DNA from: a virus
DNA: 64,000 nt
Direction: 5' to 3' (one strand)
Virus record (IMG/VR): IMGVR_UViG_3300020419_000004
Shown in pieces: positions 2-36,900 of this stretch; position 1 is the first letter of the stretch, and every line of letters begins with the position of its first letter. The translations under genes were made by a program, and so were the position numbers. Below the pieces are notes generated by a model. The model had not been told where the DNA came from and searched no databases. It saw nothing but the letters and a program-made list of their open reading frames with translations.

Positions 2-3000
2 GCATTTAACAAAGCAAAAGAATATGCTGCTAGTATTCTTATCAATACTGCGATTACTATCCAAGGACAACACGGATACACCCAAGTAACTAACACTGGA
101 GTCACATTTGATGCTGCGACATGTGCAACTGTAGACGCTGCAATGGACACTCTATTCAATATTGTTACTACTGCTATCAGTAATGATACTCTTGCTAGTG
201 TAACCAGAACTAACCCATCAAATCACATTCTGCATATTGAGGGAGAAGAGATTGAAACCATTCATGCAATCAACAAAGCTAGGGACTTAATGAACTTAGC
301 GGTAGTCAACAACCTACCTATTGGCACATACACTACCAAGGTTCCTGTTACTGACCTCAGTATTACACTAGCCTCAGACAGTTGTGCAACTGTCACATCC
401 GCTATCACAACCCTTGCTAAGTTGATGACTGATGGTATTGATAATCCATCTACACTACCTCAACTGAACGAAGGTAACTATCCAAATATTAGAACAGGAA
501 CCCCTATTACAGGATTAACTAATGGTACTGCATACTTTGTCAAATATGTTGATGCAAATACAATTGAACTTAGAACTATAGCAGGTGGTCAGTCAATTAA
601 CTTAACTGGGGTTGGTGCTGGTACAGGTCATACTATTAGAGCATTTATTGATGGTGTTAACACTCAGTTTAAACTAGTTGAGAATGGAGCTCCATTCAGT
701 ACTAGACTAGGTAAGACTCCAGATAAGGATCAGTTATTTGTTCTTGCTAATGGTATTGTTCAGAACCCTACCAATTACACATATGCAAGTGATATCATAA
801 CCTTCAACAAACCATTACTTAGTGGAACGACTGTTGTGGCGATGTATTACGATCGTGCATCATATACCTCCAGTTTCCAGTTAGATACTATTGGAGATGA
901 GATCAAGACATTTGATGTTGCTAATGGTCTAACACCTGGCAATGGATATAGTAATGGCACATATATCAATGTACCACTTAAAAATAATCTTGGTTCTGGT
1001 AGTGGTGCTACTGCAGATATTACAGTCACAAGCAATAAGGTATCTAATGTTGTACTCAACCAAGCAGGTAATGGATATACTGAAAATGATGTATTGGGCA
1101 TATCTGAGATAGGAGAACAGTTAACTAATAATTACATTCCTTCTACAGCATCTTATACACCTGCTAGTGGTGATTTAGAGTTGACTATTGGTAATCACAC
1201 TCTAACAACTAATGACACAATCAGAATTGCTAATGATGCTCTAATATTCTCATGCAGTTACGGTGGTGGTGGCAATCAGAACTATCCTAGATCCACAGAC
1301 CCTATCGGAAATCTATTTGATGTTCCTATTACTGCTACTAGTGCAACCACTATTACAGTCAATGCTTTACAAGGCACAACTCCTACAAACACTGATGCTC
1401 ATACATGGCAAGGATTAAAGGCATATCAGTTCCAACCTACTAAGGTCAAGTATATTCCTGCAACAGGTGACATGATAGTTACTGCTGCTAGTCATGGAAT
1501 GTATAAGGGAGATAGAATTCAGATTGATACAGATTCATTCACCTTCACTTGCTCTAAAGATAATAACAGTAGTAATCACACATATCCTCGTGCTTCAGAT
1601 CCTGTAGGTGGTGCATGGTTGACAATTGCTAGTGTAACCACAGATGCATTCACAGTTAACGTTGGTGCTAACGAGAGAATGTCATTTACACCATCAGCAT
1701 CAACATATAATGCTGCTACAGGTGATGTGACACTTGATATTGGTGCACATGCTTTAGTTGCTCCACTAGATCATACTGCAACGAATGCAGTCTATACACC
1801 TGCTGATGGTAAGGTTGTTATCACTGTAGTTGGACATGGAATGTCTAATGGTGACAGAGTGTGGATCGTAGATGATTCATTATCATTCACATGTACTCAT
1901 GGTTCTGGAACTAAAACATATCCTAGATCAACTGACCCTATCAGTGGTAAGTTTGTAGAGATCTTTGATGTATCAAATGATACATTCACTATTCAGTGTT
2001 TGGAGACTATCCCATCAAGCAATACTACTACTCATACATTTGTATCTGCTCAAGGTGCAGGTATTAAACAAGCAAGAGATTTTGTAAGAATTAAGAGAAA
2101 TGGATTGATCTATACTTGTGAGATGGATGACAGAGCAACACGTCATTCTTATCCTCGTCAAGGTGATCCTGCAGATGGTGCACCACTAGGTGTTAAATCA
2201 GTCTCAGGCAACGTTATCACTGTAAACGTTGGTAAGTCACCTATTGTCAATTACACCCCTACAGATGCCACATACTCCCCAACCACAGGAGTTATGGAAT
2301 TGACTATCGGTTCTCATAGTCTTGTTGCTGGTAAGAGTATTAAATTAGCAGAGGGTGCTGTAACATTTACCTGTGCACAGGATGGTAATACTGTCAGTAA
2401 GAGTTATCCAAGATCATTGACAGATGGATTTGATGTAACAGGTGTTAACTATAATCCTGACAACGGTGTTATGACAGTTACGTCACTGGCACATGGTATG
2501 GCGAATGCTGATTGGATTAAATTCAAACCAGAATCATTAACATTCACATGTGGACTAGATGGTAATGTTAAGAAAAAACAGTATCCACGTGCTACAGATT
2601 ACCCCTATGATAGGTGGTTAAAGGTATCAAATGTTACAACTGATACATTTGACGTTGTTGTTCTAGATGTTGTACCTTCTACTAATACAGATACCCATTT
2701 ATTCAGTCCATTACCTACTAGAGGACCTTCCTCAGTATCTTATAATGCAACTTCAGGTATAATGAGTATCTCAGTTGAGCAGTTTAATGTAACTGATGCA
2801 ACTTATAATGGTACAACAGGTGACATGGTACTAAACATTGGTACTCATAACCTAACAACTCTTAATGTAATCAGACTTGATGAGGAATCATTATCATTCA
2901 GTTGTGAATATAACGGACAAGTACAGACTAAGGCATATCCAAGATCAAATGGTAATGACTATGTTTACAACGTTGATATTCCAATCACAGCATACACACC

Positions 3001-6000
3001 TACTACAATTACAGTCAATGTAAATGGTGGTCAAGGTGCTATCAGTCATGCTGTACCTCATACCTTTATAAGTGCTACCGCAAACTGTGTTAAATCTGGT
3101 CATGGATTATCAAATGGTGACTTCATTAAACTTAAGGATGATTCACTAACATTCAGTTGCACACAAGGTCTTGGTAATAAGAATTATCCTAGAGCAGTTC
3201 AGGCACAATATACTGCTGCAGCAGGTACTACCTATGATCCTGTAACAGGTCTTATGAATGTTACTACTTCAATCAACCATGCAATTCAGGTTGGTGATAA
3301 AATTAAATTTGATGATGGTGCTACATCATTCAGTTGTACTGCAGGTTCATTCCCACATACATTCGTAAGTGCTACTGCTAACGCTGTTACTGTAGTGACA
3401 GATAGTAATGCTCAGAGAAACGTAACAGATGCAGCATATAATCCTGCAAATGGTCAGGTAGAATTGACAATAGGTTCTCACAGTTATACAACAAGTGATA
3501 CCGTTAAGATTGCTGTTAACTCTATAACATTTACTTGTGATGAAGATAGTAATGCTACCCTTCACTCATATCCTAGGATAACTGATCAGGCATATGAAGC
3601 AGTATTACCAATTCTTGCTGAGACTGGTACTACAATTACGGTTGCTGTTGGTACTGCAGCATCTACTGCTGCTACTGCATACCCAAGATCAGGAGACTAT
3701 GCTAGTGGTAAATGGTTAGAGGTATATTCAAGAACTGCTAATACCTTTACTGTCAAGGTATTGGATAGCGTTCCTTCAACAAATATTGCACCTCATACAT
3801 TTACGACTGGTTCTACTAATGGTATTACATTAAAGGATCCTGCAAGTCAAGAGTTTCTTCCTGTATCAAATGTTACATTCAACTCATTCGATGTACAAGT
3901 TCTCAATACTGTACCTTCAACTAATACAACCGTTCACACATATATCTCTGGTGATGCAGATGCCATTACCATTGCACCATTTGAGAAGAAGCGTGACCCA
4001 TTCTATGATACTGCCTTAAAGATTACTGCAACTACTGCAACGACTATTAGTGTTGATGTTCTTACTACTGAACAGAGTACAAATACCTACGCTCATAGTT
4101 TCGTATCTGCCTTAGCAGATGGAGTTATAACAGGTGGTAACTATGCTCATACATTTGTCGCTGCAGATGCTGGTGCTATTGTAACAGGAGATAGACATAC
4201 ATTTGTGAGTGCCACTTCAAATAGTGTCACAAGGGGTATTGTCACCCATGGTGTATTTGCGTATAACAAACTTGCAGATGCAGGTAGGTTGATACGTGAC
4301 AACCTAGAGTTCATTGCAACTACTGCATATGGTAGAATGCTTGCTGCTAACCCAAGTTTCAATGGTGATGCCTACAAAGTCAAATGTATTCGTGACACTA
4401 AGTTGATATGTGATGCTGTTGCAGATAATATAGAATTTGGTGGAAACGATGCTACTTATGATGCAGCAAACTTCTATGTTGGAACTGTACACTTGACTGG
4501 TGAAGAAGATCAGTCTGTTCAAGTATTCAACGCTGCTAGAGATATATGTCGTGAAGTTATGCGTAATATCACAGTTACAACTAACTCAACCACTCTTGGA
4601 TCTCAATTCAAGGATCTAACTATAACTAACGATAGTGGAAATGATGTGTACGACACAAATGACTGTACTGCCATCGCTTCTTCTATCACAACACTCTTCG
4701 CTATTGTTACTACCGCAGTTGGTACTACAGCAGGTGGTTCTGGTAATCTTAATAGTATTACAAGAACAGAAGCATCCAACCCATTCTTCCAGATTGGAGT
4801 GGGAACTGTAACCTTTGATGGCACAGACACCACATATACTGCACAGGTAGGCGGTAGTACACAAGTACTACCCGCAAGTGATAACTTCCTAATATTCTTG
4901 AACAGCACCCTACAGGTTAAAGGTAGTACTGAGTCTTACACATACACTGGTAGCACATTAACCTTTAATGAGGCACCTCTACCAGGAATGGACTTCTATG
5001 GGTTCTACTTTGGTAAATTGGAACTTATTGACGATCTTGCACCATACTTTGACAACTCTAAGAGAAACTTCACTATGAAGAAGGATAATGAACCAATATC
5101 CTTAGAATCTGATAACGCTTCTGTTATTGCATCTAACAACTTGGTCATCTTCCTAAATGGTGTATTCCAAGAACCTCAGCAAGCATATAACTTGAGAGGA
5201 TCTATTATTGAGTTCAGTGAAGCACCAAGAGCAGGTTCTGACTGTACTGCATTTATATTCACAGGATCTGCTGAAGACGTATTATTGAGTAATACATACA
5301 ACTCTGTTGATCCTGGTGACAGACTTCAGGTTGCTAGTGAAGGAGATGACAGACTGATTGCTACAGTTTCTAGTTCTACTTCTATTGATAGTTACGAGTA
5401 CGTAGGTCTTAGACCAATACCTGCAGAGTTCGTAGCTACTATATCCAGTGGTAGAGTGACACAGGTTAGTATAACTAATCCTGGTTCTAACTATGAAGTA
5501 CCACCAATCTTATTATTCCAAGGTGGAGGTGGTGAAGGTGCATTCGCAGAAACAACTATCGAAGAGGGTAGTGGTAAGGTTATCTCAGTTACAAACTTGA
5601 AAGGTGGTAATAATTATGCTACAGTGCCTACAGTGTTAGCAACACACCCACTTCACTTAGAGAGAAAGGAAAGGAACAGAATTATCTCAGATTCAAATCT
5701 GATTGCTAATTCCTTCCTAACTAGTTCTGTCACAGATAGTGATACTACATTAAATCTGCAGAATGTCTGGTATGATGTTTCTCAAAAATATGGTTTCCCT
5801 GATGAAGCAGAAGTGCTTATTACATTCTATAATACTGTGAAGCAACATTGGACTGCTGAGAGAATTCTCTATGGTGCAAAGGATACATCTGCTAATACAT
5901 TAACAGTAGCAACTGGTGGTAGAGGGTTTATGGGAACGACTGCCCATGCTCACACTATATTAACAGGAACTTACAGTGCGACAGGAACTGCGTGTACTGT

Positions 6001-6193
6001 AACTACAGCATCAGCTCATAATCTAATCAATGACATGTATCAATACTTAGATTTCACGAGTGGTGATGGTTTCGACGGATCTTATAAAGTTACCGTTACA
6101 GGAGCCACAACATTCACAGTCGAATTCCCGTTCTCTAGAACAACAAGCGGAAACGTAAGTCTCCTCCCAGAAGTTCGTCTGAGATCATTATAA
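2..6193 (+). CDS. gp7: Giant baseplate wedge initiator gp7-like protein, 5'-truncated by the window
   Basis: Frame is open from position 2 (AFNKAKEYAAS...) through the track's ATG at 143 to TAA 6191-6193, so the true start is upstream. It lies directly before gp8 and has cyanophage-type fibre/baseplate modules. The gp7 call rests mainly on position and architecture. Confidence 0.75.
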   Translation, partial: AFNKAKEYAASILINTAITIQGQHGYTQVTNTGVTFDAATCATVDAAMDTLFNIVTTAISNDTLASVTRTNPSNHILHIEGEEIETIHAINKARDLMNLAVVNNLPIGTYTTKVPVTDLSITLASDSCATVTSAITTLAKLMTDGIDNPSTLPQLNEGNYPNIRTGTPITGLTNGTAYFVKYVDANTIELRTIAGGQSINLTGVGAGTGHTIRAFIDGVNTQFKLVENGAPFSTRLGKTPDKDQLFVLANGIVQNPTNYTYASDIITFNKPLLSGTTVVAMYYDRASYTSSFQLDTIGDEIKTFDVANGLTPGNGYSNGTYINVPLKNNLGSGSGATADITVTSNKVSNVVLNQAGNGYTENDVLGISEIGEQLTNNYIPSTASYTPASGDLELTIGNHTLTTNDTIRIANDALIFSCSYGGGGNQNYPRSTDPIGNLFDVPITATSATTITVNALQGTTPTNTDAHTWQGLKAYQFQPTKVKYIPATGDMIVTAASHGMYKGDRIQIDTDSFTFTCSKDNNSSNHTYPRASDPVGGAWLTIASVTTDAFTVNVGANERMSFTPSASTYNAATGDVTLDIGAHALVAPLDHTATNAVYTPADGKVVITVVGHGMSNGDRVWIVDDSLSFTCTHGSGTKTYPRSTDPISGKFVEIFDVSNDTFTIQCLETIPSSNTTTHTFVSAQGAGIKQARDFVRIKRNGLIYTCEMDDRATRHSYPRQGDPADGAPLGVKSVSGNVITVNVGKSPIVNYTPTDATYSPTTGVMELTIGSHSLVAGKSIKLAEGAVTFTCAQDGNTVSKSYPRSLTDGFDVTGVNYNPDNGVMTVTSLAHGMANADWIKFKPESLTFTCGLDGNVKKKQYPRATDYPYDRWLKVSNVTTDTFDVVVLDVVPSTNTDTHLFSPLPTRGPSSVSYNATSGIMSISVEQFNVTDATYNGTTGDMVLNIGTHNLTTLNVIRLDEESLSFSCEYNGQVQTKAYPRSNGNDYVYNVDIPITAYTPTTITVNVNGGQGAISHAVPHTFISATANCVKSGHGLSNGDFIKLKDDSLTFSCTQGLGNKNYPRAVQAQYTAAAGTTYDPVTGLMNVTTSINHAIQVGDKIKFDDGATSFSCTAGSFPHTFVSATANAVTVVTDSNAQRNVTDAAYNPANGQVELTIGSHSYTTSDTVKIAVNSITFTCDEDSNATLHSYPRITDQAYEAVLPILAETGTTITVAVGTAASTAATAYPRSGDYASGKWLEVYSRTANTFTVKVLDSVPSTNIAPHTFTTGSTNGITLKDPASQEFLPVSNVTFNSFDVQVLNTVPSTNTTVHTYISGDADAITIAPFEKKRDPFYDTALKITATTATTISVDVLTTEQSTNTYAHSFVSALADGVITGGNYAHTFVAADAGAIVTGDRHTFVSATSNSVTRGIVTHGVFAYNKLADAGRLIRDNLEFIATTAYGRMLAANPSFNGDAYKVKCIRDTKLICDAVADNIEFGGNDATYDAANFYVGTVHLTGEEDQSVQVFNAARDICREVMRNITVTTNSTTLGSQFKDLTITNDSGNDVYDTNDCTAIASSITTLFAIVTTAVGTTAGGSGNLNSITRTEASNPFFQIGVGTVTFDGTDTTYTAQVGGSTQVLPASDNFLIFLNSTLQVKGSTESYTYTGSTLTFNEAPLPGMDFYGFYFGKLELIDDLAPYFDNSKRNFTMKKDNEPISLESDNASVIASNNLVIFLNGVFQEPQQAYNLRGSIIEFSEAPRAGSDCTAFIFTGSAEDVLLSNTYNSVDPGDRLQVASEGDDRLIATVSSSTSIDSYEYVGLRPIPAEFVATISSGRVTQVSITNPGSNYEVPPILLFQGGGGEGAFAETTIEEGSGKVISVTNLKGGNNYATVPTVLATHPLHLERKERNRIISDSNLIANSFLTSSVTDSDTTLNLQNVWYDVSQKYGFPDEAEVLITFYNTVKQHWTAERILYGAKDTSANTLTVATGGRGFMGTTAHAHTILTGTYSATGTACTVTTASAHNLINDMYQYLDFTSGDGFDGSYKVTVTGATTFTVEFPFSRTTSGNVSLLPEVRLRSL
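1124..4237 (+). repeat. Array of 10 nested ~100-aa YPRxxDP/HTF domains in gp7
   Basis: Ten YPR motifs in the translation, each with TxAxYxPxTG, HxL/HG, (T/S)F(T/S)C and HTF(V/I)SA elements. Protein-level repeat with diverged DNA. Confidence 0.9.
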
Positions 6194-6216: not shown

Positions 6217-7731
6217 ATGGCATTAGTTACTGATAAATTTAGAATATACGCTGCCGAGAGCTTCAGAAATACTCTGCAAAGCTCAAACAAAGTGTACATG
6301 TTCGTCGGTAGGGCGAAAACATGGGGGTCTTCTGACATCCCACCAACAGGTGAGCCTATCGACAGTTTTGAGTATGCAAGAACTACATATCAGGATTCCG
6401 TTGCCTTTAAGCGTGTTGATATATCTGATACTGCATTAGTAGTTCCTAGAGTTGATTGGGTTGACCCAACAAAGACAACTGGTGGAGTTGGTCGTACATA
6501 TTCAATGTACAAACCAGACTATGCACCAACTAAGACAACCGCAAACGGTGCGTCTAGGTTGTATGATAGTAACTTCTATGTTATGAACTCAGACTTCAAT
6601 GTCTATAAGTGTCTTTATAATGGTGAAGATCCAGACTATCCAAGAGGTAGACCTTCTTTGGTAGAACCAACTGGTACATCAACCACAATTATTGAAACAT
6701 CTGATAGTCCTGGTGTATATTCCTATAGATGGAAATATCTCTATACTATTGATGCTGATAATATTCTAAAGTTTGTTACTTCTGAATTTGTCCCTGTATT
6801 ATCCAATACTCTAGTAAATTCTGCAGCAAACCCAGGTTCAATTGACACTGTTGTCGTTGAGAATGCTGGTGCAGGTTATAACAACGGTACATATACCAAT
6901 GTTCCTATTCGTGGAGATTGGGAAATCAATAGTGGAACCCAAGCACTATGTACTGTAACTGTTGTTTCAGGTTCTATATCTGCAGTGACTGTTACTCAAG
7001 CAGGTTCTGGATATAGTTTTGCTTCTATTGATGTGGCACTAATTACTAATATTGGTAATGGTACTAATGCAGCACTTGACGTTGTACTACCTCCTCAGGG
7101 TGGTCATGGTGCAGACGCTGTTAGAGAATTAGGTGCATATCGTCTTATGTTCACTAGTAAATTAGAAACTACTAGTGCATTCGTTGATTTCCCTAATGAT
7201 TTGTCATACAGAAGGGTTGGTCTTGTACTAAACCCATTTGATTACAATACTACTAGTATTTGTAGTCAGAACACAAGATCTGCTGTTAAGGCAATGATCT
7301 TTCCCCAGTCTGGTACTGGTACTCCTAGCGGAAGTTTTGCACCTGGTGAGACTATTACACAGACAAGCACAAATGCGAAAGGATTTGTAGTTTCTTATGA
7401 CTCTACAACTAAAACTTTAAAATATTATCAGGATTCTGTTGATGGTACTGTCAATGGCAATATTATTGCGTTCTCTGGTTCAAACCAGATTACAGGTGGT
7501 ACAACATCATATACCGCAACCCCTGATGCAACATTTGGAACTTCATCCGTTCCACTATCACAGATTACTATTGGTGTATCTGTGTATGAGTTAGGTCTTT
7601 CATTCGTCACTGGTTATGCCAATGAAGAGATAGAACTAAACTCAGGTGAAATGCTTTACATAGATAATAGGATTCCGATCACAAGATCGGCAGACCAAAA
7701 CGAAGAGTTAAAAGTAGTAATTGAATTCTAA
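6217..7731 (+). CDS. gp8: Baseplate wedge subunit gp8
   Basis: 504 aa. MALVTDKFRIYAAESF, FYVMNSDFNVYKCLYNG, YRWKYLYTI, YRRVGLVLNP and C-terminal GEMLYIDNRIPITRSADQNEELKVVIEF are typical of T4-like gp8. Confidence 0.9.
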   Translation: MALVTDKFRIYAAESFRNTLQSSNKVYMFVGRAKTWGSSDIPPTGEPIDSFEYARTTYQDSVAFKRVDISDTALVVPRVDWVDPTKTTGGVGRTYSMYKPDYAPTKTTANGASRLYDSNFYVMNSDFNVYKCLYNGEDPDYPRGRPSLVEPTGTSTTIIETSDSPGVYSYRWKYLYTIDADNILKFVTSEFVPVLSNTLVNSAANPGSIDTVVVENAGAGYNNGTYTNVPIRGDWEINSGTQALCTVTVVSGSISAVTVTQAGSGYSFASIDVALITNIGNGTNAALDVVLPPQGGHGADAVRELGAYRLMFTSKLETTSAFVDFPNDLSYRRVGLVLNPFDYNTTSICSQNTRSAVKAMIFPQSGTGTPSGSFAPGETITQTSTNAKGFVVSYDSTTKTLKYYQDSVDGTVNGNIIAFSGSNQITGGTTSYTATPDATFGTSSVPLSQITIGVSVYELGLSFVTGYANEEIELNSGEMLYIDNRIPITRSADQNEELKVVIEF

Positions 7732-16928: not shown

Positions 16929-17132
16929 ATGAACGCACAAATTGTTATTTCTAGATTACAAAGAAAAGTATCTGAATTGACCCTTATTAACGTGATGCTG
17001 GAAGCACAGATTGAAGACCTGCAAACCCAGTTAAATAGTATAAACGAACAACCTAGTGATGCTCAAGTAGATGGCAACGAGAATCAAACTCAAGAGATCG
17101 ACAACAGCGACGACAGTCCCGACGACTTCTAA
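16929..17132 (+). CDS. Small coiled-coil protein with acidic tail
   Basis: 67 aa; heptads LQRKVSELTLINVMLEAQIEDLQTQL; last 62 nt overlap the next gene. Confidence 0.65.
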   Translation: MNAQIVISRLQRKVSELTLINVMLEAQIEDLQTQLNSINEQPSDAQVDGNENQTQEIDNSDDSPDDF

Positions 17133-24988: not shown

Positions 24989-27900
24989 ATGGCTCTTAAG
25001 ATTAATTCTGACCAACAGAGAATATCAGCATCGGGGAATACCCCCACAGGTAATTGGATAAACGCTACTTACAGTAGGACTGTGACTGGTATGGTCAACA
25101 TCCTGTCTGTTGCACATGGGTTTATTGGAAGTGATAAGTTGTATATCGACTTCACTTCTGGTGGAGAAACGGATGGAACTTATACTGTCACGAAGGTAGA
25201 TGACGATAATTTACAATATCAGAGTACAAATTTAGGTGTCATAACTGCTGGTAATACTCTAGCGTACAAAAGAGTAAGATCTTTAAGTATTCAGGGTGAC
25301 GAGACCATTGAAATGTCAGTGGGTACTGGTGCAAATGAGAAGGATGCACTTACCGTCAACCTAAATGCACAAAATAATATACGTATTGGTGTTAATACTA
25401 CCGATCCTCTATACGAATTAGATGTTGAAGGACAGATAAGAACCACTCGTTCTATCATTTCTGATACTGCACAGGTTGTTAACTTAGATATTCAGACGAT
25501 TATCAACCCTGCACTGGATCTTCGTGGTCCTAATTTAATAAATTACGAAGATACAGACGTAACAAGTCCTACTTTTGGTACGACTTTTTACCCAACTGCC
25601 GATACTCCACCTCTAACTGACCAGTCCAGAAGACTTGCAACCACTGACTTTGTATATAAAGTTGCTACTAATGACACTGGTGGTCGTGTTTATGTGTCTG
25701 CAACCATCGGTAATGACGAAAATGATGGTCGTTCAGCTGCAAGACCAGTAAAAACAGTTAAAAAAGCAGCACAGATTGCCTATACATTACAAAAAGCAAC
25801 CCCAGATCCTAGTGATGAATACGTTTCATTGATCGTATCTGGTGGTGAATACCTTGAAGACAACCCAATTTCACTTCCTAGGAACTGTTCACTAATCGGT
25901 GACAACCTACGTCGTGTTGTTATGCGACCAGCTAACCAAGATCGTCACATGGTTAAAGCGTCTAACGAGACGTATGTGTTCGGTGTTGTATTCAGAGACG
26001 CACTACAAAACCCATCAGACCCACAAAGTACTGTAATCCATACTTGGAAGTATGCATTTGTGTTTGATGACAAGCAGAGATTATACTACGAACCAGAACT
26101 TCAGCAGATACCTGCTATTCCTGGTGATAAGTTCCGTGGTGATAACCTTTTCAATATTACTTTTAATAACCATACAGGTAACAATACTACTCTCGTAGTT
26201 GGTTATTTTGTACAAGGTGGATCATCAGGAACACTAGGTACAATTCAATCTATTACTTTCACAGGTCCTGATGCATCTCCATACTCAACTGGTAGTATAA
26301 CGATATTAATTACATCAGGTGTTAACGATGTATTCCAAGACGCTGAAAAAGTATTCTATGATGCTGTGGCAGCAAATATCATTACTGATATTAATAATGC
26401 TAGTGTATCAAACCGCTTTGACGTAGCAGATGCTGAATCATTAAGACCTGAACTAGAAACTATATCTAACCAGATCTATCAGCACACAGTTAATTCCGAA
26501 AGATTTTTTGAAGCATTCTCTGGTGACGCAACCAAGGTCAACCTAACAACAGATCGTATCACAGTTCCTAATCATTATTTTGAGACTGGTTCTGCTGTTT
26601 ACTACCAAAAGGATGAAGCAACTGTCCTTGCTGGTTTAGCTGACACTACTGTATACTATGTCAGAGTTATTGATTCAAACACGATTGAACTTTATGATAA
26701 CTATACAAATTCTGTAGCGACTACTACAACTACAGGTAGAAAAGACATTACCTCAGTATCTACAGATACAAAACTTCACTTGTTTACTTGTGGTAATGTA
26801 ATGCCAGAAAGTAACAATATCAGAATTCCAACACACCAATATGCAACTGGTGATGGTGTAGTGTACCGTTCAGGTGCAATGGGTGGTATTGATGGTCTTG
26901 TAAGTGGAACTTCATATTATGTCTACAGAGAAAATAAAGATTGGATCAGACTTGCATCATCTGCTGCTAACGCAGTACAAAAAGATGCACAGGGTAACGA
27001 TGATCCTGTAACTCTTCCTATCAATAGCACTGGTACTGGTTATCAGAGATTTGAACTTGCAGCAAATCTTCTATCAGTTGGTACTATAGACACTACTATT
27101 GCAACACAGCAAACCTACAGAGGTCCTATCTTAACTCTTGCTGGTACTGAATACCATGACTATGAGGTAGGACAGGAAGTTCATCTATATGGTTTCCAAA
27201 GTTCTGCTATTAACTTTGGTTCTTCCACTAACACTTCTTGGTCTTTATCAAGTGGTGTAGTTACTGTTACCATCTCAAGCGTAGATAACACTCTCACAAG
27301 TGGGCATTTTAGTAACTGGATGACACTAACAGAATGTGGTCTCACATTTAACTTTAGTGGAACTGGATCTGAAGCATTAAGCAAGACATATCATATTGAT
27401 CAATTTGATCTTGGATCTGGTACTCCATCTCTACCTGGCAACACTGCATTGGGTATGGGTTATGCTAGGTACAATAGTTCTAGTACAACTATCACTTTCG
27501 TATTAAAGACAGCAAATATACAATCAACATCTAATACTGCCACTGCAACTGGATCTACAGTCAGTGTCTTGGATAACGTTGCTGACCTTAATGGACGTAA
27601 GTACATCACACACCGTATTGAACGTGCTGATGGATACTCCCTACAGTTTGTTATAAGAGCTGCTATCAGTGTATTTTCTGCTTCGCTTAACCCAACTGGT
27701 AACCAGACAGTTATCTCATCTAGTAACTATGTTCTAGCATCCTTAAGAAACTCTCCTTATGGATTTACCAAGATCTCTCAGACTGACAGATATAGAGATG
27801 GTGCTGAATCTATTAAGAGAAACCAAGAATTTATTGCAGAAGAAGCATACGGTTATGTTAAGTCACATTATGAACAGTCTGGTACTAGAAGCAGTACGCT

Positions 27901-30900
27901 TGTAATAGGACCTACAACATTCAATGCTTTAGGAGATACCTTTACACATCCTATCAGTGAGTGGACACTAACCTACAATTACCTTAAGGTTAAGGTCAAT
28001 ACTGGTCACAACTTAAGCAAAGGATTTAGAAATCATAACCACATATACAATGGTGGTACAGCATCTAATGCTATTACAATTACACAAGGTAGTGTTCAGA
28101 AAGATGTAACTGATGCAACATACAATCCTGTAACAGGAGATCTAGTATTAACAATTGGTGCTCACGCCTATACAACTGCTAATACACTGGTTATTGCTAA
28201 TGGTGCTATTAGTTTCACATGCTCTAGAGACAACCACGCAACATCTCATACCTATCCAAGAGCAACAGATCCTGCATACGGTGCTACTCTACCAATCACA
28301 GCAGTAGATGCTGCAGGTACAGTTACAGTCAACGTTGGTGTTTCTGCGGGTGTCACAATTTCAGGTAGTTCTACTGCTGGTATCAATGGTACTTGGGCAA
28401 TCTCTGACGTATATGATCATAGAGAATTTACACTAGACATTGGTGAAAACACTATCTCTACTGGAACTACTGGTACTGATGGTTCATTCAATGATATAAG
28501 AAAACCATATAGAACTCCAAATACATTCCCTGTCAGCAACAAGCAAGGTGATGGTGCAGACTTAATTGCTAATAACGCTGAATTAATTGCTGAAGTAGCA
28601 GTTAAGAAGATGCTTGCTGCCAACGCAGGATATACTCCTACAGGCGGTACTTCAGCATGTACTGATGACCTTAAGGACTTCTTACAGAAATCACTTTACC
28701 ATAACCTCAAATGGGGTGGTAATGACAGAGTATATGATGCTGCAAACTACTACATTCATTATGTAAGCACAGGTAATAAGGATAGATACGCCGAAGCATT
28801 TAACTATGCTAAAGAATATTGCATGAAGGTTATCCGTAACCTACCAATACTAAGGCATCCTCATACTCTTGCACCTCAGTACTACGATACTAGCATCACC
28901 CTAGACAGAGCTGTCTATGGTACAGTTCCTAACCTAACTCAAGATGCAGCAAACTTATTGAATGCTAACAACAAGTTTATCTCTGAGGAATCTGTAGAGC
29001 GTTTCATTTCAAAACTAACAGACGTTGCTGTTGATGCAGTCAATGGAAATGAGATCACTATCAATGCTCTAAACGGAACAACTCCAACAAACACAAATCC
29101 TCATACATTCCAAGGTGTAGCTACATATCAGTTCACACCAACTGGAGGATCATACGATCCGTTAACTGGATATATGACTTTAACTATGAATGGTCACCCA
29201 TTTGTAGATGGAGATAAAGTTCAGTTTGCTGCAAATTCTATTAAGTTCACATGTGACTTAGATGGCGATGCATCTATCAAGTCATATCCTCGTACTACAG
29301 ACCCATGGTATAACAAGTGGATCGGTGTACAGAAGGTAGACGCAAATAATATTAAAGTTAACGTAGGTCCCGCTAAGACTGACGTTACCAATCACACATG
29401 GTCAAGTGCTACAACTAATGCGGTATCAAGAGCAGTTGTTTACAATGACACTGGATTTACACAGCATACTGTAACTGGTGCTAACTACGAACCAATCACA
29501 GGTATACTAACTCTTACAATTCCTAATCATGGATTTACTATAGGAGAGAAGGTACAGGTTGCACAGGATTCATTGACATTCACTTGTTCAATGGATGACA
29601 ACTTCTCCAAGCACACATATCCAAGAGCAACAGATCCAGCACTTAATGTTTGGAAGAGTGTTACTAACGTTACACAAAATACTTTCGATATTAACGTAGG
29701 AACTACACCTCCTGTCACTTTCACTCCTACAAACGCTACATATACGCCTACAACAGGTCTTATGGAGTTGACTATAGGTAATCACACTCTTGAAGCTCCT
29801 ACTAGTCATACAGTCACAGACGCATCATTAGACACTAGCACTGGTATCTTTACTGTAACTATTAATAATCATGGTTTCCAAGAAGGAGACAAGATTAATG
29901 TTGCACAAGGCAGTATTCAAATGTCTTGTGGATATAGTGGTGGTGGTAATGAATCTTATCCTAAGGCAGGTCAATATGCTGATGGTAAGTGGTTAAACAT
30001 CTGGGGAGTTACTCAGAACACATTTAGTTTCGACTGTACTGGTGGTGTAGCGGTATCCGTTAGTGATGCTCATACATTTGTATCTGCGACAACTCTTGGT
30101 TTGAAGCATGTTAAGGAGCATATCAAACTTACAACAGGTGCGGTTACATTCAAGTGTGCTGCTGATGGTAATTCAACTGATCATGCATATCCAAGATCAA
30201 TCGTAGATTCACATACTGCAACAACTGGTACAACATATGATCCTAATACAGGTATCATGAAGATTACCACAACTGCTGCTCATGGTATGAGAAATGGAGA
30301 TTGGGTAAAACTTTCTGAAGGTTCTATTTCATTCAGTTGTGGATATAATGGTGCAACTGGTTCAGCTGCTATCAAGGCATATCCAAGATCATCTGATCCT
30401 ATCTACAACCAGTGGCAGAAAGTTTTCAACGTAACCTCATCAACATTTGATCTTCAGGTTCTTGACAGTATTCCTTCTACTAATACTGATACACATACAT
30501 TCGTATCTGCAACATCTAATGGTATTCAACAGAAGAGAGATAAGACATACAATACTTCAGTTCCTATCGTAGCAATATCTGGTACTTCAATTACTATTGA
30601 CGTTGGTATTTCATCCAACACTACTGCACACGTTTATCAGTCTGCACTTAACAACTCAGTTATTACTGGTGGTAACTACAGTCACACATTCATTAGTGCA
30701 ACAACTAATGGTATTAAGAGAGCAACTGCATCCACAATTAATAACTACGTACCTTCTTCAGGAACATATAATCCTACAACTGGTGCTCTTGTATTAAATA
30801 TCGGTGCCAACGATCTTTCAGCACCTCAAACTTATACTTCCACTAATGGTGTGTACAACCCAACAACGGGTATAATGACAGTCACTGTTGCCAATCACGG

Positions 30901-33900
30901 GTTCCAACCAGGTGATAAGGTTAAGTTTGCTGTAGGTGCAATAAGCTTTAGTTGTACTTATGGTAGTGGTGGCACAACTGCATATCCTAGATCATCAGAT
31001 CCAATTGCTGAAAAGTGGGTTAATTGTTTTAACATCACTACAAATACATTTGATGTACAAACATTAGATACTACTCCATCAACAAACACAAATCCTCATA
31101 CCTACGTCAGTTCTGCTGCTAATGGTATCAGTCATGCTAAGTCTACAATTAAGATTGCAGTAGAAGCATTAGAGTTGAGTTGTACTTATGGAGATCAGAG
31201 TACTAAGAAATATCCTCGTGCAACTGACCCAATAGCAAATCCAAGATTTACTATACCTAACCACAATCAAGATTGTAAGGATGACGTATCTGATGTTCTA
31301 AGAGCAGTAGCATACAACCTTACTAACGGTGGTAACGATGCTGTCTATGACCATGCAGGTTACTTTGTCGGCACTCCACACGTAGATGGTGAAGAATTCC
31401 AAGCACGTGCTGTTATGGAACTTGCTAGTGATATCTCACAAGAAGTTCTTGCTAATGAAACAGTTAACATTAAAGGTTGGCATGGTGTAGATCAGACTAA
31501 GGATCTCACAATTACAGTAGAACCTGGTGGTTGTGCTTCTGTCAAATCTACATGCGACACTCTATTCTCTATAGTTGAACAAGCAATCGTTACTGATAGT
31601 CTTGCTCATGCTACAGATACAGCAGCGTCTACTCCAACATGTGCTGATGTAGCATCTTCTGTCACAACATTCTTCGATATTATTACAACTGTAATCGGTA
31701 CTGAAGCTGGTGGATATGGATCTCTTCCAACCACAAGAACAGTTTCAGTTGGCGATCAGCAGTGTATTGATGACATTCTTCATGTCGTTAGAGCATTCCA
31801 GTATGACCTCAGATACACTGGTAACTCTAAGATAGTTGAAGCTGCTAACAAATATATCTCAAGTGGTGCAATCGTACACATCACTGAGGAGATAGATTAT
31901 ACTCGTGCGATCTATGCATACGCAAAAGAGTTATGTATCAAAGCAATAAGAAATGATCTAGAGGCTGGTTTCTTCTCATTGATTGCTCCAATATCTAATG
32001 GTTCTATCACTGTAGATTCAGCGAAACCTGAGTGTGCTAACGTTGTATCTGCGTTGACTACTAACTGGGGTATATTAGATAACGTATTGTCAAGTGGTAC
32101 TGCATACAGTGGAACTACAACAGTTCCTGATCCACTCATTCAGGAACAGGATGCTGCTAAGTATAGTTTCCCACTACTTAATATTTTCTTAGATCTTCCA
32201 GTTATTGAAGCATCTCCTTACATTCAGAACTCTTCACTTATATCATTCCTTGGTGGTTCTGGTTGTGACATTGACGGTGCTAAGGTTGCTACACCTAACG
32301 TACCTAGACCTGGTCTTAAATTAGATGGACTAGGTAATAGTATTGCACAGTTCGACCCACAAGGTAAGTCGATGGTTGCAAACGCATTCACTATCATCTG
32401 TTTTGGTGGTACTGCGTACAACGTCAGTAATGATGGATACACCCAGTTAGTTTCTGTATTCGCTATCTTCTGTCAAGATGGTATCTTCTGTCAGTCTGGT
32501 GGTTATGCATCTGTTACTAACTCAGCATCTAACTTTGGTACATACTCACTACGTGCTACTGGATTTAGAGCAGAACCATACTCATTTGATATTGGTGTTA
32601 TTGATAGTATCACTAATGACGCTGATGGAAATGGAGTAGAAAATGGTAGACAGGTCATTCAGGTTTCTGGTACAACCTTAACTAACATCCCTGTTGAAGA
32701 TTACATCATCAGAATTGGTGACACTAATCCTACAGACCCTGCTGTTGAGCATATCATTCTTGAAACTGAAGTTGTTTCTGGTGCTCCTGGTACTCAAGTT
32801 GTTGCCAAGATTACAACTAACAGGTCAATGGATTATACATTGACTGCTTCACCTAATACTAGGTACGACTATGCTAGTGGTAACCTATCTGGTCTTGTCG
32901 GTAAATCAATTCAGTTCCACAGACCATCTGTATGTAACTCATCATCACATACTTGGGAATTCTCAGGTTCAGGTAATACCTACGCTGCGTTACCACAGAA
33001 CGGTGGTTTCGGTCTAGGTACTGCATACGAAGCATCAGAACAAGCATTCGGTCAGGTTTATACTTCAGGTACTAACGAGTTTGGTGACTTCAAGGTTGGT
33101 AATTTCGTTACTATCTTCAACAGAACTGGTAATATTAGTTTCGTTGGTACTGTTAGTATCTCTGAACTATCATCTATCAAGATTGTTGGTGGTGACATCA
33201 CGGTTACAGGTTTCTCTGACGCTGATACTCTTGGTGGTGTATTCGCATCTGATAGTTTACTACCTACTCAGGCATCAGTTAAAGACTATATTTCAAATAA
33301 TCTAGGACCATACCTCAACCAACCATATTCAACAAACGCAGTTCCATCTGCACTGGTTCAGTTAACATCTTCAGGTAAGATCAACATTGACCAGATACCT
33401 GCTTTACGTCCATTCAATATCACCTCTGTTACATCTGAAGCAGAAAGACTTGCAATTGAGAACGCACAAGCTGGTGACATTGCTATCCAAACAACTGCTA
33501 CATCATTCAGTGTTGCACCTGCATCTATTAACACAGGTGCCGATACAATCACCATTGCTTCTCATGGAGCAAACACTGGTGATGGATTAACATACACACA
33601 AGGTACTACTGCAATCGGTGGTCTATCGACTAACACCAAGTACTTCGCTATTAAGGTTGATGACAATACTATTAAACTTGCAACTACCAAGTCTAATGCA
33701 ACCAACAACCAAATTATAACTTTAAGCGGTCAAGGTACTGGTACTCATACATTCACAACTGATGGTGTTGCGGTTTCATACATCTTGGAGAATGACTTAG
33801 AAAGTCAGTTCTTAGCATTCCAACCAGACAGTAACTTCTCATTTAGTGTTGGAGCAATTGTACAAGGTAGTACAACTACTGCTCGTGGTACTGTTTCAGC

Positions 33901-36900
33901 ATTCAACGATGGTCAAATATTTAACTTCGTCATCAGTGATGGTGGTGGAGATTACACTGGAGACTTTGCACTAACAATTGCTGCACCTGATGATGCAGGT
34001 GGTACACAGGCAGCTGCTACTGCTAACGTCACAAGTGGTATCGTAACCAAGGTTACTATCACTAACGCTGGTTCTGGATACTATACACAACCAACTGTTA
34101 CTGCACCTAACTCACCAAGTAACAATAATGCAGTAATCGCTGCACAGATTGAAGGACGTGTAGCAATTAACATTGCAAACAATATTAAGTTTGACGCTTC
34201 TGACTTCTTACTAGATGGTGCAAACGCTAACCTAGGAACAGGTACATACAGTCAGACTGGTTCCACTATTACTGTTAGTGAGAGTGGGCATAACTTAGCA
34301 AACGGTGCACTAGCATACTTAGACTTTACAAGTGGTCAAGGTGCTGATGGTTTCTATGCTATCACTCTAGTTAACGCTAATGAATTTACAGTAACCTCTG
34401 CTACATCAACAAGTACTACTGGTAACGTTTCTAGGAAACGAATTATTGATCTTACTAGAGTAATTAATACATCTGGTAGTAACATTGCTAACTGGACACA
34501 GTTGACATCTACTAACATTGATGCTTCTAACATCGTTGCAGGTACTGTTGACCCAGAGAGACTAGCGAATAAAGGTATATCTAACTCCTTTACATTCTTA
34601 CGTGGTGATAGTTCTTGGGAGTATGCACTACAATCAATTAGACCTAGCACACAAGATGCTGTGGTTATCGGTGGATCTGTAACTGATAGTTCTTACATTG
34701 ATACTATTACAATTACAAATGGTGGTACAGGATATACCAACGGTACATATCAAAACTTACCACTACAAGGTGGTAACGTTAGCATCTCAGACGCAGGTGT
34801 TGCGAGAGCTACTTACATAGTTTCTGGTGGTGTTATTACATCCGCACAGGTTACTGACTCAGGAACAGGATATACTGCTGGATTTAGCGTAACAATTCCA
34901 TCTGAGTTTGGTGGTGGTAATGGAGCAATACTTGCTGCTAACAAAGGAACAATCAACCGTGCCTTTGGTAACATTGAGATTGATATTAAAAAAGGTGATA
35001 ACTTAACTCCAGCTGCATCTGTTTATGGTAACTACGGTGTATTCAGATTTAGAAAAGACATTGCTAACCAAGCAATTGGTAACCAAGATCAAGGTGGATT
35101 TATTATTGACAATGATGGTCAGGTTTCAATTGACCAAGGTCCAGGATCTGGACTTAACGCTGACTTACTAGATGGTAACGGTGGAGGTTTCTATACTAAT
35201 GCAAGTAACCTAACTCAGGGTACTCTTGCTGCTGCAAGACTAGCAAATACCACATATGCAATATCCATATCTGGTACTGCTGACAAAGCAAACAGAATAT
35301 TCAACGAGTCTGCATCACTAACTTCAAACCCTGCTCCTGCACAGGCATCAGACGGTGTTGGTGCTGCACTAAGAAATAATACTGCTACTGGTCTGAATGA
35401 TGGTGGTACCACACACGGTATCATGACTTACAGAAGACAAGCAACTGGTACTGCTACAACTCAGCTTGGTTTCACTGATAATAATAACCTTTGGGTTAGA
35501 GGTAACAGTGGTGGTAATGCAGTATATGGTAACTGGTATAAGATGTGGTCAGGACTCAACGATGGTGCTGGCAGTGGATTGGATGCTGATAAATTAGATT
35601 CACATCAAGGTTTATGGTATCAGTCTGGTTATAACTTCGGTGCTTCTCAGGGTGGCATCAACAAACCTATGGGTGACATCTTCTTACCTGAGGTTCTTGG
35701 TGAAGACAAGATGGTATTTGAGAACTTCTATCTCAATGATAGTGGACTCAAGTATACATTATACGTTCCAGATTTCCATGTAAGCACAGGTACTGGTGGT
35801 AACGTCAACAATGGTGGTACATACACTATCTACTCTGACGTAGGTGCAACAAACAACATAGGTTCTATCGTAGTTGATGGAGCAGGTGTTCAGGAACTTA
35901 CACACACTTCAGGTGAGATATACTCTCTCATAACTGGTACGATCGCATTTGTTGGTAACAATACCAACGCAAACATATATGTTGTAGGTCCTAACCCAGG
36001 TACTAAGTGGACTGTAACATCATCCAACTTGATCTCTAGTGGTTCTTCCACAGTGATCGGAATGCGTGATGCTGCTGCAGGTGCTAAGTTACAGGTTGGT
36101 AAAGCATCTGTTTCTACAACTCCAACTGTAGACTTCCGTTCTTCAGGACAAGCACCTGAGTACGATGTACAGTTCCTTATTTCTGGTGGTAATACCAACA
36201 ACGGAAATGGTACTATAAGAATTAACACTGGTGATATTACCGTTAATGGTAACACCATGTGGCATGCAGGAAACGATGGTAGTTCCTCACAGCTAGACGC
36301 TCACTACGTAGATGGATTTACTCAATCAACATCTGCTAACGCAAACACACTTGCACGTAGAGATGCATCAGGACACTTAACAGTCAATGACTTAACAGGT
36401 GACCAAGGTATATTCCAGAACACTGGTGCTTCAATATTACAACTTGCTGATGGTAACGGTGTTAACTTAGGTAAGGCAACAACTAACGCTCTATCAATTC
36501 AAGGTAGAAACAGTGCTAGTGTTGGTTACATCCGCTTTGGTAATGACAGTAATAGTTTCGGTTACAATGGAACATATCTAAACTACAATAACGTTACCTT
36601 CCGTAGCGGTAGAGTAGGTATTGGTGATACAAATCCTGGCTCACCTCTTGAGATTGTTGCTGAGGGTAATGCTAGTTCTGCTACTGCATTTGCTGACTTT
36701 AGAGACGGTAGATCAGGATACGGTAGAATAACATTTGGTGCTGACGGATCATCTTCCTTCATGACCTTTACTGATACTGACAACGATATGGGTTGGCAGT
36801 TAGGTGCTGATGATAATGATCAGTCATGGTTTGCTATTAGAAACTTTGCTGATGCTAGTGGTGCATTATCAACATCATTCCAATCAAATGCTAAAGTAAA

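What the first reader, a model, noticed from the sequence alone, without database searches (positions are those of the whole stretch)
1124..4237. Nested 'balanced-parenthesis' domain architecture in gp7
The ten copies of the ~100-aa domain are not tandem: copies are inserted into loops of other copies. Example: D3 reads ...DIGAHALVAP [complete D4] ARDFVRIKRNGLIYTC...YPRQGDP...VNVGKSP [D5...]. D5 is split inside its own motif: SYPRS [D6-D10] KRDPFY. Insertions occur at five different loops: after strand 2, after HxLxAP, after FSC, after YPR(S/A) and after VNVG. The three domains still open (D5, D3, D2) close in reverse order as three consecutive strands: HSFVSA..., HTFVAA..., HTFVSA (4090-4237). 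Nesting D2>D3>D5>D7>D9>D10 gives a depth of about 6. Inference: the chain folds as a branched, tree-like structure on the baseplate rather than beads on a string. I do not recall this architecture being described, but cannot check.
Basis: partly seen in the sequence, partly recalled or inferred. Interest (0 to 1): 0.85.

Follow-up and report, generated by a model that had tools for sequence, protein, structure and literature searches.

The report
Russian-doll barrel domains in cyanophage gp7
A giant baseplate protein of a marine cyanobacterial virus carries ten copies of one small beta-barrel domain plugged into each other's loops six levels deep, and related viruses differ by clean gain or loss of whole sub-branches, so this virion protein grows and varies as a tree of domains, not a chain.

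Summary
The window's ORF 2..6193 is the C-terminal 2063 aa of a 4777-aa gp7-like baseplate wedge protein of a T4-like marine cyanophage. Residues 376-1410 hold ten copies of a ~100-aa domain (motifs YxPxxG, GxH, FxC, YPR, HTFV). Four copies are intact and six are split by other copies. The nesting is D2>D3>D5>D7>D9>D10.

- **Splicing:** spliced pieces rejoin into single end-to-end profile hits.
- **Natural variants:** one related contig lacks exactly the D9{D10} unit, so D7 is contiguous there. Others carry an extra domain in D1 or D8.
- **Structure prediction:** AlphaFold gives pLDDT 92 and pTM 0.67 for the D9{D10} unit. About 80-residue solved barrels align across model range 2-215 (host) or about 50-159 (insert). 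In the 1037-aa model, D2 and D3 span 99-1037 and 184-1023.
- **Permutation:** D10 is circularly permuted, with its last strand coming first.
- **Fold:** nearest are the E1 FCCH and phage endosialidase beta-barrels (Z 7-8.5).

The principle is already known from the Si3 insertion of cyanobacterial RNA polymerase (six levels), so this is a new variant, not a new category. I found no paper describing it for phage proteins. This scan has noted the same build in at least eight other cyanophage genomes. Function (a rigid, branched, exchangeable adhesin array) is inferred.

The parts
2..6193 (+). C-terminal 2063 aa of the 4777-aa gp7-like baseplate wedge protein (the ORF starts at G000:C1:23002, upstream of the window)
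   Evidence: PHROG baseplate wedge subunit phrog_2885. The next gene, 6217..7731, is phrog_438 baseplate wedge. The P-SSM4 homolog is annotated gp7.
1127..1429 (+). D1 (aa 376-476), intact copy, tandem to the tree
   Evidence: profile 5-101, E 1e-44. Its ortholog in L013 carries an extra domain at profile position 27/28.
1430..1669 (+). D2a (aa 477-556), strands 1-6 of the root barrel; opens after VNVG
   Evidence: profile 2-82. VIA rows span model 99..1037.
1676..1765 (+). D3a (aa 559-588), strands 1-2 plus the GxHxL loop
   Evidence: profile 4-27; pLDDT 68-91
1766..2071 (+). D4 (aa 589-690), intact copy inserted in D3 after HxLxAP
   Evidence: profile 5-100, E 2e-46. VIA rows 213..317, Z 8.5 to the E1 FCCH domain.
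2072..2239 (+). D3b (aa 691-746), middle of D3 up to VNVG
   Evidence: profile 29-81
2240..2413 (+). D5a (aa 747-804), N half of D5 up to YPRS
   Evidence: profile 5-59
2414..2725 (+). D6 (aa 805-908), intact copy, first insert in the YPR loop of D5
   Evidence: profile 2-100, E 8e-50
2726..2776 (+). D7a (aa 909-925), strands 1-2 of D7
   Evidence: profile 5-21 with the ten-copy model
2777..3091 (+). D8 (aa 926-1030), intact copy inserted in D7 after strand 2
   Evidence: profile 1-101. VIA rows 550..658. Its ortholog in L014 hosts a permuted insert after FSC.
3092..3193 (+). D7b (aa 1031-1064), GHG loop to YPRA of D7
   Evidence: profile 22-58. Contiguous with D7c in L002.
3194..3337 (+). D9a (aa 1065-1112), N part of D9 up to FSC
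   Evidence: profile 2-46. AlphaFold unit model pLDDT 83-97.
3338..3406 (+). Displaced last strand of D10 (aa 1113-1135, H-T-F-V-S-A), lying before D10: a circular permutation
   Evidence: profile 88-103. Its His is invariant in 20 such units. VIA insert rows start at model residues 49-63.
3407..3673 (+). D10 body (aa 1136-1224), strands 1-6, innermost copy
   Evidence: profile 2-87; pLDDT 90-98
3674..3832 (+). D9b (aa 1225-1277), YPR to the last strand of D9
   Evidence: profile 51-103. VIA host rows span 2..215 with about 80 residues aligned.
3833..3985 (+). D7c (aa 1278-1328), C part of D7
   Evidence: profile 58-103. Joined directly to D7b in L002. Subtype B, like D7b.
3986..4132 (+). D5b (aa 1329-1377), C part of D5, 524 residues after D5a
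   Evidence: profile 56-102. Its C-half subtype score (+5.2) leans to type A like D5a's TIGSHSL motif, against -34 for the type-B D7c and D9b; D5a's own score is ambiguous (-2.8).
4133..4180 (+). D3c (aa 1378-1393), closing strand of D3
   Evidence: profile 86-102. VIA rows 184..1023.
4181..4231 (+). D2b (aa 1394-1410), closing strand of D2, about 840 residues after D2a
   Evidence: profile 88-103. VIA rows 99..1037. pLDDT here is only about 45.
24989..37597 (+). Second giant gene (4202 aa) of the same phage with nested copies of the same domain and a stand-alone permuted copy

Best explanation
Residues 376-1410 of the window protein (a 4777-aa gp7-like baseplate wedge protein of a T4-like marine cyanophage) are a recursively nested array of ten homologous ~100-aa seven-stranded beta-barrel domains.

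The barrel's two ends lie close together. A complete barrel, or a closed sub-tree of barrels, can therefore sit in a surface loop of another barrel without breaking it. The chain runs outward through unfinished barrels (D2, D3, D5, D7, D9), reaches the innermost copy (D10), and finishes the open barrels in reverse order on the way back.

The tree is D2{D3{D4}{D5{D6 D7{D8}{D9{D10}}}}}, with D1 in tandem before it. It is branched and six levels deep. D10 entered as a circular permutant, with its last strand first.

Closed sub-trees behave as evolutionary cassettes. Related phages differ by clean presence, absence or replacement of whole units at the same loops, while the scaffold D2>D3>D5>D7 is kept.

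Shown: the segment map, the splice complementarity, the last-in-first-out order, the natural indels, the predicted discontinuous barrels, and the fold resemblance.

Inferred:
- The result is a compact, doubly tethered (hence rigid) bush of about ten barrels per subunit at the baseplate periphery.
- It serves multivalent binding of host-surface glycans, and cassette turnover tunes host range.
- The near-invariant His24/Cys43/Asp59/His92 form a metal or other clamp that holds the far-travelling last strand.
For: **Segment map and splice test**
- Complementary profile coordinates.
- All six split copies rejoin to single end-to-end hits of 61-100 bits.
- Ten of every motif.
- No copies elsewhere in the 4777-aa protein.

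**Last-in-first-out order**
- Here, the two long C parts come before the two lone strands.
- In homologs, P0004 reads (60 () (29 (57 () 58) 28) 57).
- 214 fragments fit the top of the stack against 7 crossing, above all 500 shuffles.

**Pairing by subtype**
- In 125 non-redundant intact copies from other phages, the N-half type predicts the C-half type in 115.
- D7c and D9b score as type B like their N parts; D5b does not.

**Natural experiments**
- L002 (88% identical) lacks exactly aa ~1065-1277, and D7b runs straight into D7c.
- L013 has a full extra domain in D1 at profile position 27/28.
- L014 has a permuted domain after FSC of the D8 ortholog.
- L008-L011 and L028 carry a different four-domain cassette in the same YPR loop of D7.

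**Structure prediction**
- D9{D10} unit with a 20-row alignment of homologous units: pLDDT 92.4, pTM 0.67.
- VIA-align: contiguous ~80-residue solved barrels align to model 2..215 (77-87 aligned, Z up to 8.0, rmsd 2.5-2.9). Others align to 49-63..154-159.
- 1037-aa model: pLDDT 74.5. Rows fall at 213..317 (D4), 550..658 (D8), 99..1037 (D2, e.g. phi92 endosialidase barrel, Z 7.9, rmsd 2.1, 74 aligned) and 184..1023 (D3).

**Permuted module**
- 19 further non-redundant units of 204-216 aa show the same order, and the displaced His is invariant.

**Fold**
- Top hits are E1 FCCH and endosialidase barrels.
- Homologs carry Pfam E1_FCCH (32.9 bits, cut-off 29.5) and a weak End_beta_barrel hit.

**Context**
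- Baseplate wedge PHROGs and a gp8-like neighbour.
- 234 phage records hold the array, all marine cyanophages, with annotations including gp7 and tail fiber.
Against: - No experimental structure exists, and I had no coordinates or PAE maps. Contacts are read indirectly from the first and last aligned residues of VIA rows.
- The two outermost closing strands have low confidence (pLDDT 44-68). Their VIA rows appear only with trimming off.
- D7c and parts of D9a were poorly modelled in the large model.
- Assignment of the last two strands to D3 and D2 rests on order and on the prediction, not on sequence.
- The L002 deletion is seen in one metagenomic contig.
- Fold matches are middling (Z under 8.5), and the tool warns that such values can reflect a common arrangement.
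- Function, rigidity and the metal clamp are untested inferences. The FCCH and endosialidase barrels are not known to me to bind metal.
Confidence: 0.88

Rival explanations
1. Nested in sequence but completed in trans or crosswise. The open barrels would be closed by pieces from another bracket (for example D5a with D7c), or by the closing strands of a neighbouring gp7 subunit in the baseplate (3D domain swapping). The array would then act as an assembly zipper, not a self-contained tree.
For: D5b and D7c cover the same profile range (56-102 and 58-103), so profile coordinates alone cannot assign them. The last two strands are interchangeable by sequence. The outermost strands are modelled with low confidence. 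By analogy with T4 gp7 (my own recall, not checked here), the protein would be present in several copies per baseplate.
Against: - L002 shows D7b and D7c as one uninterrupted domain, which leaves D5b for D5a.
- Subtype coupling fits the nested pairing.
- Across homologs, crossing fits are rare (7 against 214).
- The monomer prediction closes D2 and D3 in nested order (99..1037 encloses 184..1023).
- The D9 unit folds confidently as a monomer.
Confidence: 0.07
2. A plain tandem array in which some copies have decayed to partial remnants. The fragments would be relics or linkers that do not rejoin, and the apparent nesting would be a by-product of local profile matching.
For: Local HMM hits to short pieces (D3a, D7a, lone strands) are individually weak: E 2e-4 to 0.6 with the four-copy profile. 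Many homolog fragments are left unmatched by my simple parser (22 with no match, 33 orphans).
Against: - The pieces cover each profile position exactly once per domain and give ten of every invariant motif.
- Spliced copies score as well as divergent intact ones.
- The invariant His of every lone strand is kept.
- Orthologs without the insert have the host halves fused seamlessly.
- Split pieces are predicted as strands with pLDDT 80-97.
Confidence: 0.03
3. An assembly or annotation artefact, with repeats mis-joined in a metagenome-derived genome.
For: The region is repetitive at the protein level, and the relatives come from metagenomic contigs.
Against: - Copies share only 25-44% identity.
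- DNA repeats are motif-length at 60-84% identity.
- The 14.3-kb frame is open.
- The same architecture recurs on independent contigs L004-L007 and in P0002, and in cultured cyanophages.
Confidence: 0.01

Closest known systems
Si3 insertion in the trigger loop of cyanobacterial (and plastid) RNA polymerase beta' (RpoC2)
   Same: An array of about eight homologous small barrel-type domains that is not a simple tandem. Several domains are built from distant parts of the chain while others are continuous, and the chain folds back on itself (PMC10895346). A 2026 survey of 48,551 insertion events names it as six-level nesting, its most complex case (PMC13114784). The depth here is the same.
   Different: - Different domain family. 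Si3 uses the SBHM/HABAS fold. Here the best structural matches are the E1 FCCH and endosialidase barrels, and no RNA polymerase chain is in the top 50.
- Different setting: a virion baseplate protein, not an enzyme.
- The phage array is branched at several loops and includes a circularly permuted insert.
- It is highly polymorphic between close relatives, and it recurs in a second gene of the same phage.
E1 ubiquitin-activating enzyme FCCH domain (Pfam PF16190) and the beta-barrel domain of phage endosialidases (Pfam PF12195; phi92 endosialidase 4hiz)
   Same: Closest solved folds: Z 7.3-8.5, rmsd 2.1-2.8 A over 74-82 residues. Homologs of the window protein reach the Pfam E1_FCCH cut-off and give a weak End_beta_barrel hit. 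From my own knowledge, unchecked here, both are themselves inserted domains in their parent proteins, and the endosialidase barrel binds sialic acid.
   Different: - The window protein's own copies give no Pfam hit even at E 10.
- The His/Cys/YPR/Asp/His signature is specific to the phage family.
- Those domains occur once per protein and are not self-nested.
T4 gp7 baseplate wedge protein and cyanophage gp7 homologs (e.g. P-SSM4 gp7)
   Same: PHROG baseplate wedge families cover the N-terminal and C-terminal parts, and a gp8-like gene follows. The P-SSM4 protein matching this array is annotated gp7, baseplate wedge initiator.
   Different: The protein is 4777 aa. My recollection is that T4 gp7 is about 1000 aa. 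I did not test whether T4 gp7 has any copy of this barrel. In the phage collection the array was found only in marine cyanophages.

Membership tests
Recursive (nested) domain-insertion architecture | A domain's sequence is interrupted by a complete domain, and the flanking pieces together make a full copy (A1-B-A2) | tested here: met
   Complementary profile ranges and the splice test. Orthologs without the insert have A1 and A2 fused.
Recursive (nested) domain-insertion architecture | Inserted domains are themselves hosts, and brackets close last-in-first-out | tested here: met
   Depth 6 here. In homologs, 214 fragments fit the top of the stack against 7 crossing.
Recursive (nested) domain-insertion architecture | Sequence-distant pieces form one compact domain in three dimensions | tested here: inconclusive
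   Supported by prediction only. Contiguous solved barrels align over model 2..215, 99..1037 and 184..1023. No coordinates, PAE map or experiment were available.
Si3-type SBHM/HABAS array | Domains have the sandwich-barrel hybrid motif fold | tested here: inconclusive
   No RNA polymerase or SBHM chain appears among the 50 best VIA rows for either model. A family that is not listed is not excluded.
E1_FCCH / End_beta_barrel fold group | An ~80-residue closed beta-barrel superposable on FCCH or the endosialidase barrel | tested here: met
   4p22_B Z 8.5, rmsd 2.8, 77 aligned. 4hiz_A Z 7.9, rmsd 2.1, 74 aligned. 9mc4_A Z 8.0. This is fold level only, and the Z values are middling.
E1_FCCH / End_beta_barrel fold group | Sequence match to the Pfam model above its gathering score | tested here: inconclusive
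   No hit for the window's own protein or its four intact copies. Homologs P0064 (32.9 bits) and P0011 (29.6 bits) pass the 29.5 cut-off only when short partial matches are summed.
T4-type gp7 baseplate wedge protein | Homology to baseplate wedge families and a position next to gp8 in the baseplate module | tested here: met
   phrog_2885 at E 0 on the N-terminal part. The neighbour is phrog_438. The P-SSM4 homolog is annotated gp7. Direct comparison with T4 gp7 was not done.
Metal-clamped domain (His2-Cys-Asp site) | Conserved ligand set that is close in space and binds a metal | not testable with these tools
   Only conservation is shown: His24 98%, Cys43 100%, Asp59 94% and His92 98% in 125 non-redundant copies. 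The displaced His is invariant in 20 permuted units.

The most novel reading that the evidence does not exclude
The barrel tree is a combinatorial host-range device. Because any closed sub-tree can be cut out of, or pasted into, a loop without harming its host barrel, co-infecting cyanophages exchange whole branches (including a ready-made 'host plus permuted insert' double module of about 210 aa) between loops, genes and genomes. This remodels a rigid multivalent glycan-binding bush on the baseplate. A His-Cys-His(-Asp) clamp lets a single strand dock back up to about 840 residues after its barrel began.
Probability: 0.3. Interest if true: 0.85.

Novelty: new variant of a known kind. Interest (0 to 1): 0.7.

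Why it matters
Domain insertion is usually one level deep. The only documented case of comparable depth that I found is the Si3 insertion of cyanobacterial RNA polymerase.

Here the same principle builds a branched, six-level tree from a different barrel family in a virus particle protein. It does so in a form that is visibly evolving, because close relatives differ by whole branches at fixed loops. That gives three things:
- A natural series for studying how proteins fold when a strand must wait hundreds of residues for its barrel.
- A design rule for insertable, stackable modules: ends adjacent, loops tolerant, permuted entry possible.
- A concrete candidate for the variable host-recognition surface of the abundant T4-like marine cyanophages.

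It also warns annotators and domain parsers. Tandem-repeat logic misreads these giant proteins.

Tried and rejected
- **Complex prediction, D5a (57 aa) with D5b (45 aa), each with an alignment of paralogous halves.** Score 0.29 and 0.28 against a mark of 0.32, controls not run, no verdict. It counts neither for nor against.
- **Foldseek against PDB.** With the 1037-aa model it gave only generic multi-Ig/FN3 arrays at TM below 0.1. With the D9 unit nothing reached E 0.001. Sequential alignment probably fails on the discontinuous topology.
- **Sequence searches.** The PDB profile search found nothing meaningful (best E 0.23). Pfam on the window protein and on the four intact copies gave no family.
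- **ESM Atlas shape search.** It found only unnamed viral clusters, TM by query 0.57-0.64.
- **First stack parser on homologs.** It failed because lone last strands are often undetected and the permuted strand breaks the stack. I replaced it with a parser that ignores profile positions beyond 80. The shuffle control for that parser is weak because many proteins have a single continuation fragment.
- **K-means subtype test.** It separates D7c and D9b from D5b clearly, but the PSSM score of D5a itself is ambiguous (-2.8).
- **Literature.** Searches on cyanophage baseplate nesting, cyanomyovirus cryo-EM, Russian-doll insertion and FCCH/endosialidase found no description of this family.
- **Model coordinates.** They are not exposed, so I could compute no contact map or check of ligand geometry.

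Full report
**Setting**

The window is G000:C1:31143-95142 of a 129-kb T4-like marine cyanophage genome. The finding lies in the frame 2..6193 (+), which is open at the window's 5' end. Read in the genome, it is one 4777-aa protein starting at C1:23002.

PHROGs place its N-terminal and C-terminal parts in baseplate wedge and virion structural families (phrog_2885, phrog_701). The next gene, 6217..7731, is a gp8-type baseplate wedge subunit (phrog_438). The matching protein of phage P-SSM4 is annotated gp7. Pfam finds nothing in the window protein.

**The observation**

I built a profile from only the four uninterrupted copies: D1 aa 376-476, D4 589-690, D6 805-908 and D8 926-1030 (residue numbers of the window protein P0001). 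It maps onto the protein as a set of fragments with complementary profile coordinates:

| Copy | Profile ranges |
|---|---|
| D2 | 2-82 |
| D3 | 4-27, then 29-81 |
| D5 | 5-59, then 57-99 |
| D7 | 7-20, 23-60, 58-99 |
| D9 | 6-47, then 51-100 |
| D10 | 3-87 |

A ten-copy profile also finds three lone last strands at profile 86-103. Each invariant motif occurs exactly ten times. No copy lies elsewhere in the 4777-aa protein.

After cutting out the inserts, all six split copies give a single end-to-end hit (profile about 3-100 of 101, 61-100 bits), and the ten copies align from first to last strand.

The copies are 25-44% identical. DNA repeats are only motif-length at 60-84% identity. Neither recent duplication nor mis-assembly explains the pattern.

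The tree is D1, then D2{D3{D4}{D5{D6 D7{D8}{D9{D10}}}}}. It is six levels deep, with branches at D3, D5 and D7. Inserts sit at five loops: after strand 2, after HxLxAP, after FSC, after YPR and after VNVG.

**A correction: D10 is circularly permuted**

D10 lacks a last strand. An H-T-F-V-S-A strand (aa 1113-1135) lies just before it, inside D9's FSC loop.

The same order (host N part, displaced strand, insert strands 1-6, host C part) recurs in 19 further non-redundant units of 204-216 aa from other phage contigs. The displaced His is invariant in all of them. It also recurs in P0005, and as a stand-alone permuted copy in the window's 4202-aa gene.

**Is the pairing really nested?**

Four lines of evidence say yes.

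1. *Order.* The open stack D2(84), D3(83), D5(58), D7(59) is closed by fragments starting at profile 58, 56, 86 and 88, which is last-in-first-out. In 76 distinct homolog architectures, 214 of 276 continuation fragments fit the top of the stack and 7 fit only a deeper entry. 500 shuffles gave 182 +/- 4.5, with a maximum of 194. P0004 reads (60 (29 (57 58) 28) 57).

2. *Subtype.* The family has two subtypes (TIGxHxL and HGxxxGD). In 125 non-redundant intact copies from other phages, the C half predicts the N-half type in 115. D7c and D9b score -34 (type B, like D7b and D9a). D5b scores +5. This fits the nested pairing and not the crossing one.

3. *Natural experiments.* These come from 58 IMG/VR loci.
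   - L002, 88% identical, lacks exactly aa ~1065-1277. There the YPR of D7b runs straight into the D-P...V-S-N-V-T-F segment of D7c.
   - L013 has a complete extra barrel inside the D1 ortholog, after the GxHxxLAP loop.
   - L014 has a permuted barrel after FSC of the D8 ortholog.
   - L008-L011 and L028 carry a different four-barrel cassette in the same YPR loop of D7.
   - The scaffold D2>D3>D5>D7 is kept throughout.

4. *Structure prediction.*
   - The D9{D10} unit, with an alignment of 20 homologous units, gives pLDDT 92.4 and pTM 0.67.
   - VIA-align against 48,161 solved chains gives two kinds of rows. Contiguous ~80-residue barrels align to model 2..215 with 77-87 residues aligned: this is the host, skipping the insert (UBA1 FCCH, Z 8.0, rmsd 2.7; phi92 endosialidase, Z 7.3, rmsd 2.5). 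Other chains align to 49-63..154-159: this is the insert with its displaced strand.
   - The 1037-aa model has pLDDT 74.5 and pTM 0.38.
   - In that model, rows fall at 213..317 (D4), 550..658 (D8), 99..1037 (D2; for example 4hiz_A, Z 7.9, rmsd 2.1, 74 aligned) and 184..1023 (D3). The prediction therefore closes D3 inside D2.

*Caveat.* A range gives only the first and last aligned residue. The two outermost strands have pLDDT 44-68, and their rows need trimming off.

**What the domain is**

It is a seven-stranded small barrel. In 125 non-redundant copies, Gly15, His24, Cys43, Tyr54-Pro55-Arg56, Asp59 and His92 are 94-100% conserved.

It has no relative in the PDB by sequence. Its nearest folds are the E1 FCCH domain and the endosialidase barrel, followed by FAD-binding and translation-factor barrels. 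Homologs reach the Pfam E1_FCCH cut-off and give a weak End_beta_barrel hit. These Z values (at most 8.5) support a shared fold, not a shared function.

The array occurs in 234 phage records, all marine cyanophages. Annotations include gp7, tail fiber, YapH and structural protein. It also occurs in hundreds of metagenomic proteins and in a second gene of this phage.

**How it most likely works**

*Shown:* a barrel whose loops tolerate whole barrels, and closed units that come and go cleanly.

*Inferred:*
- Each insert is tethered at two points, so the array is a compact branched body and not beads on a string.
- Sitting on a baseplate wedge protein, and being the most variable part between relatives, it probably forms a multivalent host-surface binding bush whose branches are exchanged.
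- The His/Cys/Asp/His set may clamp the last strand. That would explain why the lone strands always keep their His.

**Comparison with what is known**

The Si3 insertion of cyanobacterial RNA polymerase has eight SBHM domains. Four are continuous and four are built from distant chain segments (PMC10895346). A 2026 survey calls it six-level nesting, its most complex case (PMC13114784).

So the principle is known. New here are the domain family, the virion setting, the branching, the permuted entry and the population-level branch turnover. I found no paper describing it.

This scan has already noted and followed up the same build in at least eight other cyanophage genomes.

**Verdict**

- Observation: confirmed.
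- Interpretation: supported.
- Novelty: a new variant of a known kind.
- Interest: 0.7.

Noticed in passing
window 1870-1938: A 69-nt stretch inside D4 (coding SLSFTC...YPRSTDP) is 94-96% identical to the tail fiber / 'YapH' genes of Prochlorococcus phages P-HM1 and P-HM2, while the DNA around it has no megablast-level match there. It could be a trace of recent exchange, or of strong constraint on the motif-coding DNA.
   Followed up: no
window 24989-37597 (+): A second giant gene (4202 aa) carries the same barrel with its own nest: a host with inserts at profile positions 27 and 58, closed within about 315 aa. It also has a stand-alone circularly permuted copy near 28031-28339 that follows a helical domain, not a host barrel.
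   Followed up: partly
window 4240-4700 and 2-400; homologs P0011, P0014, P0024, P0092: Helical segments flank the barrel array. Not examined here.
   Followed up: no
L008-L011, L028 (about aa 1530-1960 of their ORFs); L013 aa 1703-1985: In relatives 67-73% identical, the YPR loop of D7 holds a different cassette: a split barrel hosting an intact one, followed by two more barrels. In L013 this cassette is followed by the D9{D10}-type unit. The same loop therefore accepts alternative and additive contents.
   Followed up: partly
loci L013, L014, L038, L040, L043, L044, L050, L052-L054: The 'host plus permuted insert' double barrel (204-216 aa) is a recurrent module found at different positions of different proteins, sometimes twice in one protein. 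It may move as a unit.
   Followed up: partly
window 7732-14418, 17071-24417, 45114-50615: Three further giant ORFs (2228, 2448 and 1833 aa) lie in the structural module. None matched the barrel profile at E 1e-3. The 2228-aa one belongs to a PHROG of unknown function (phrog_358).
   Followed up: no
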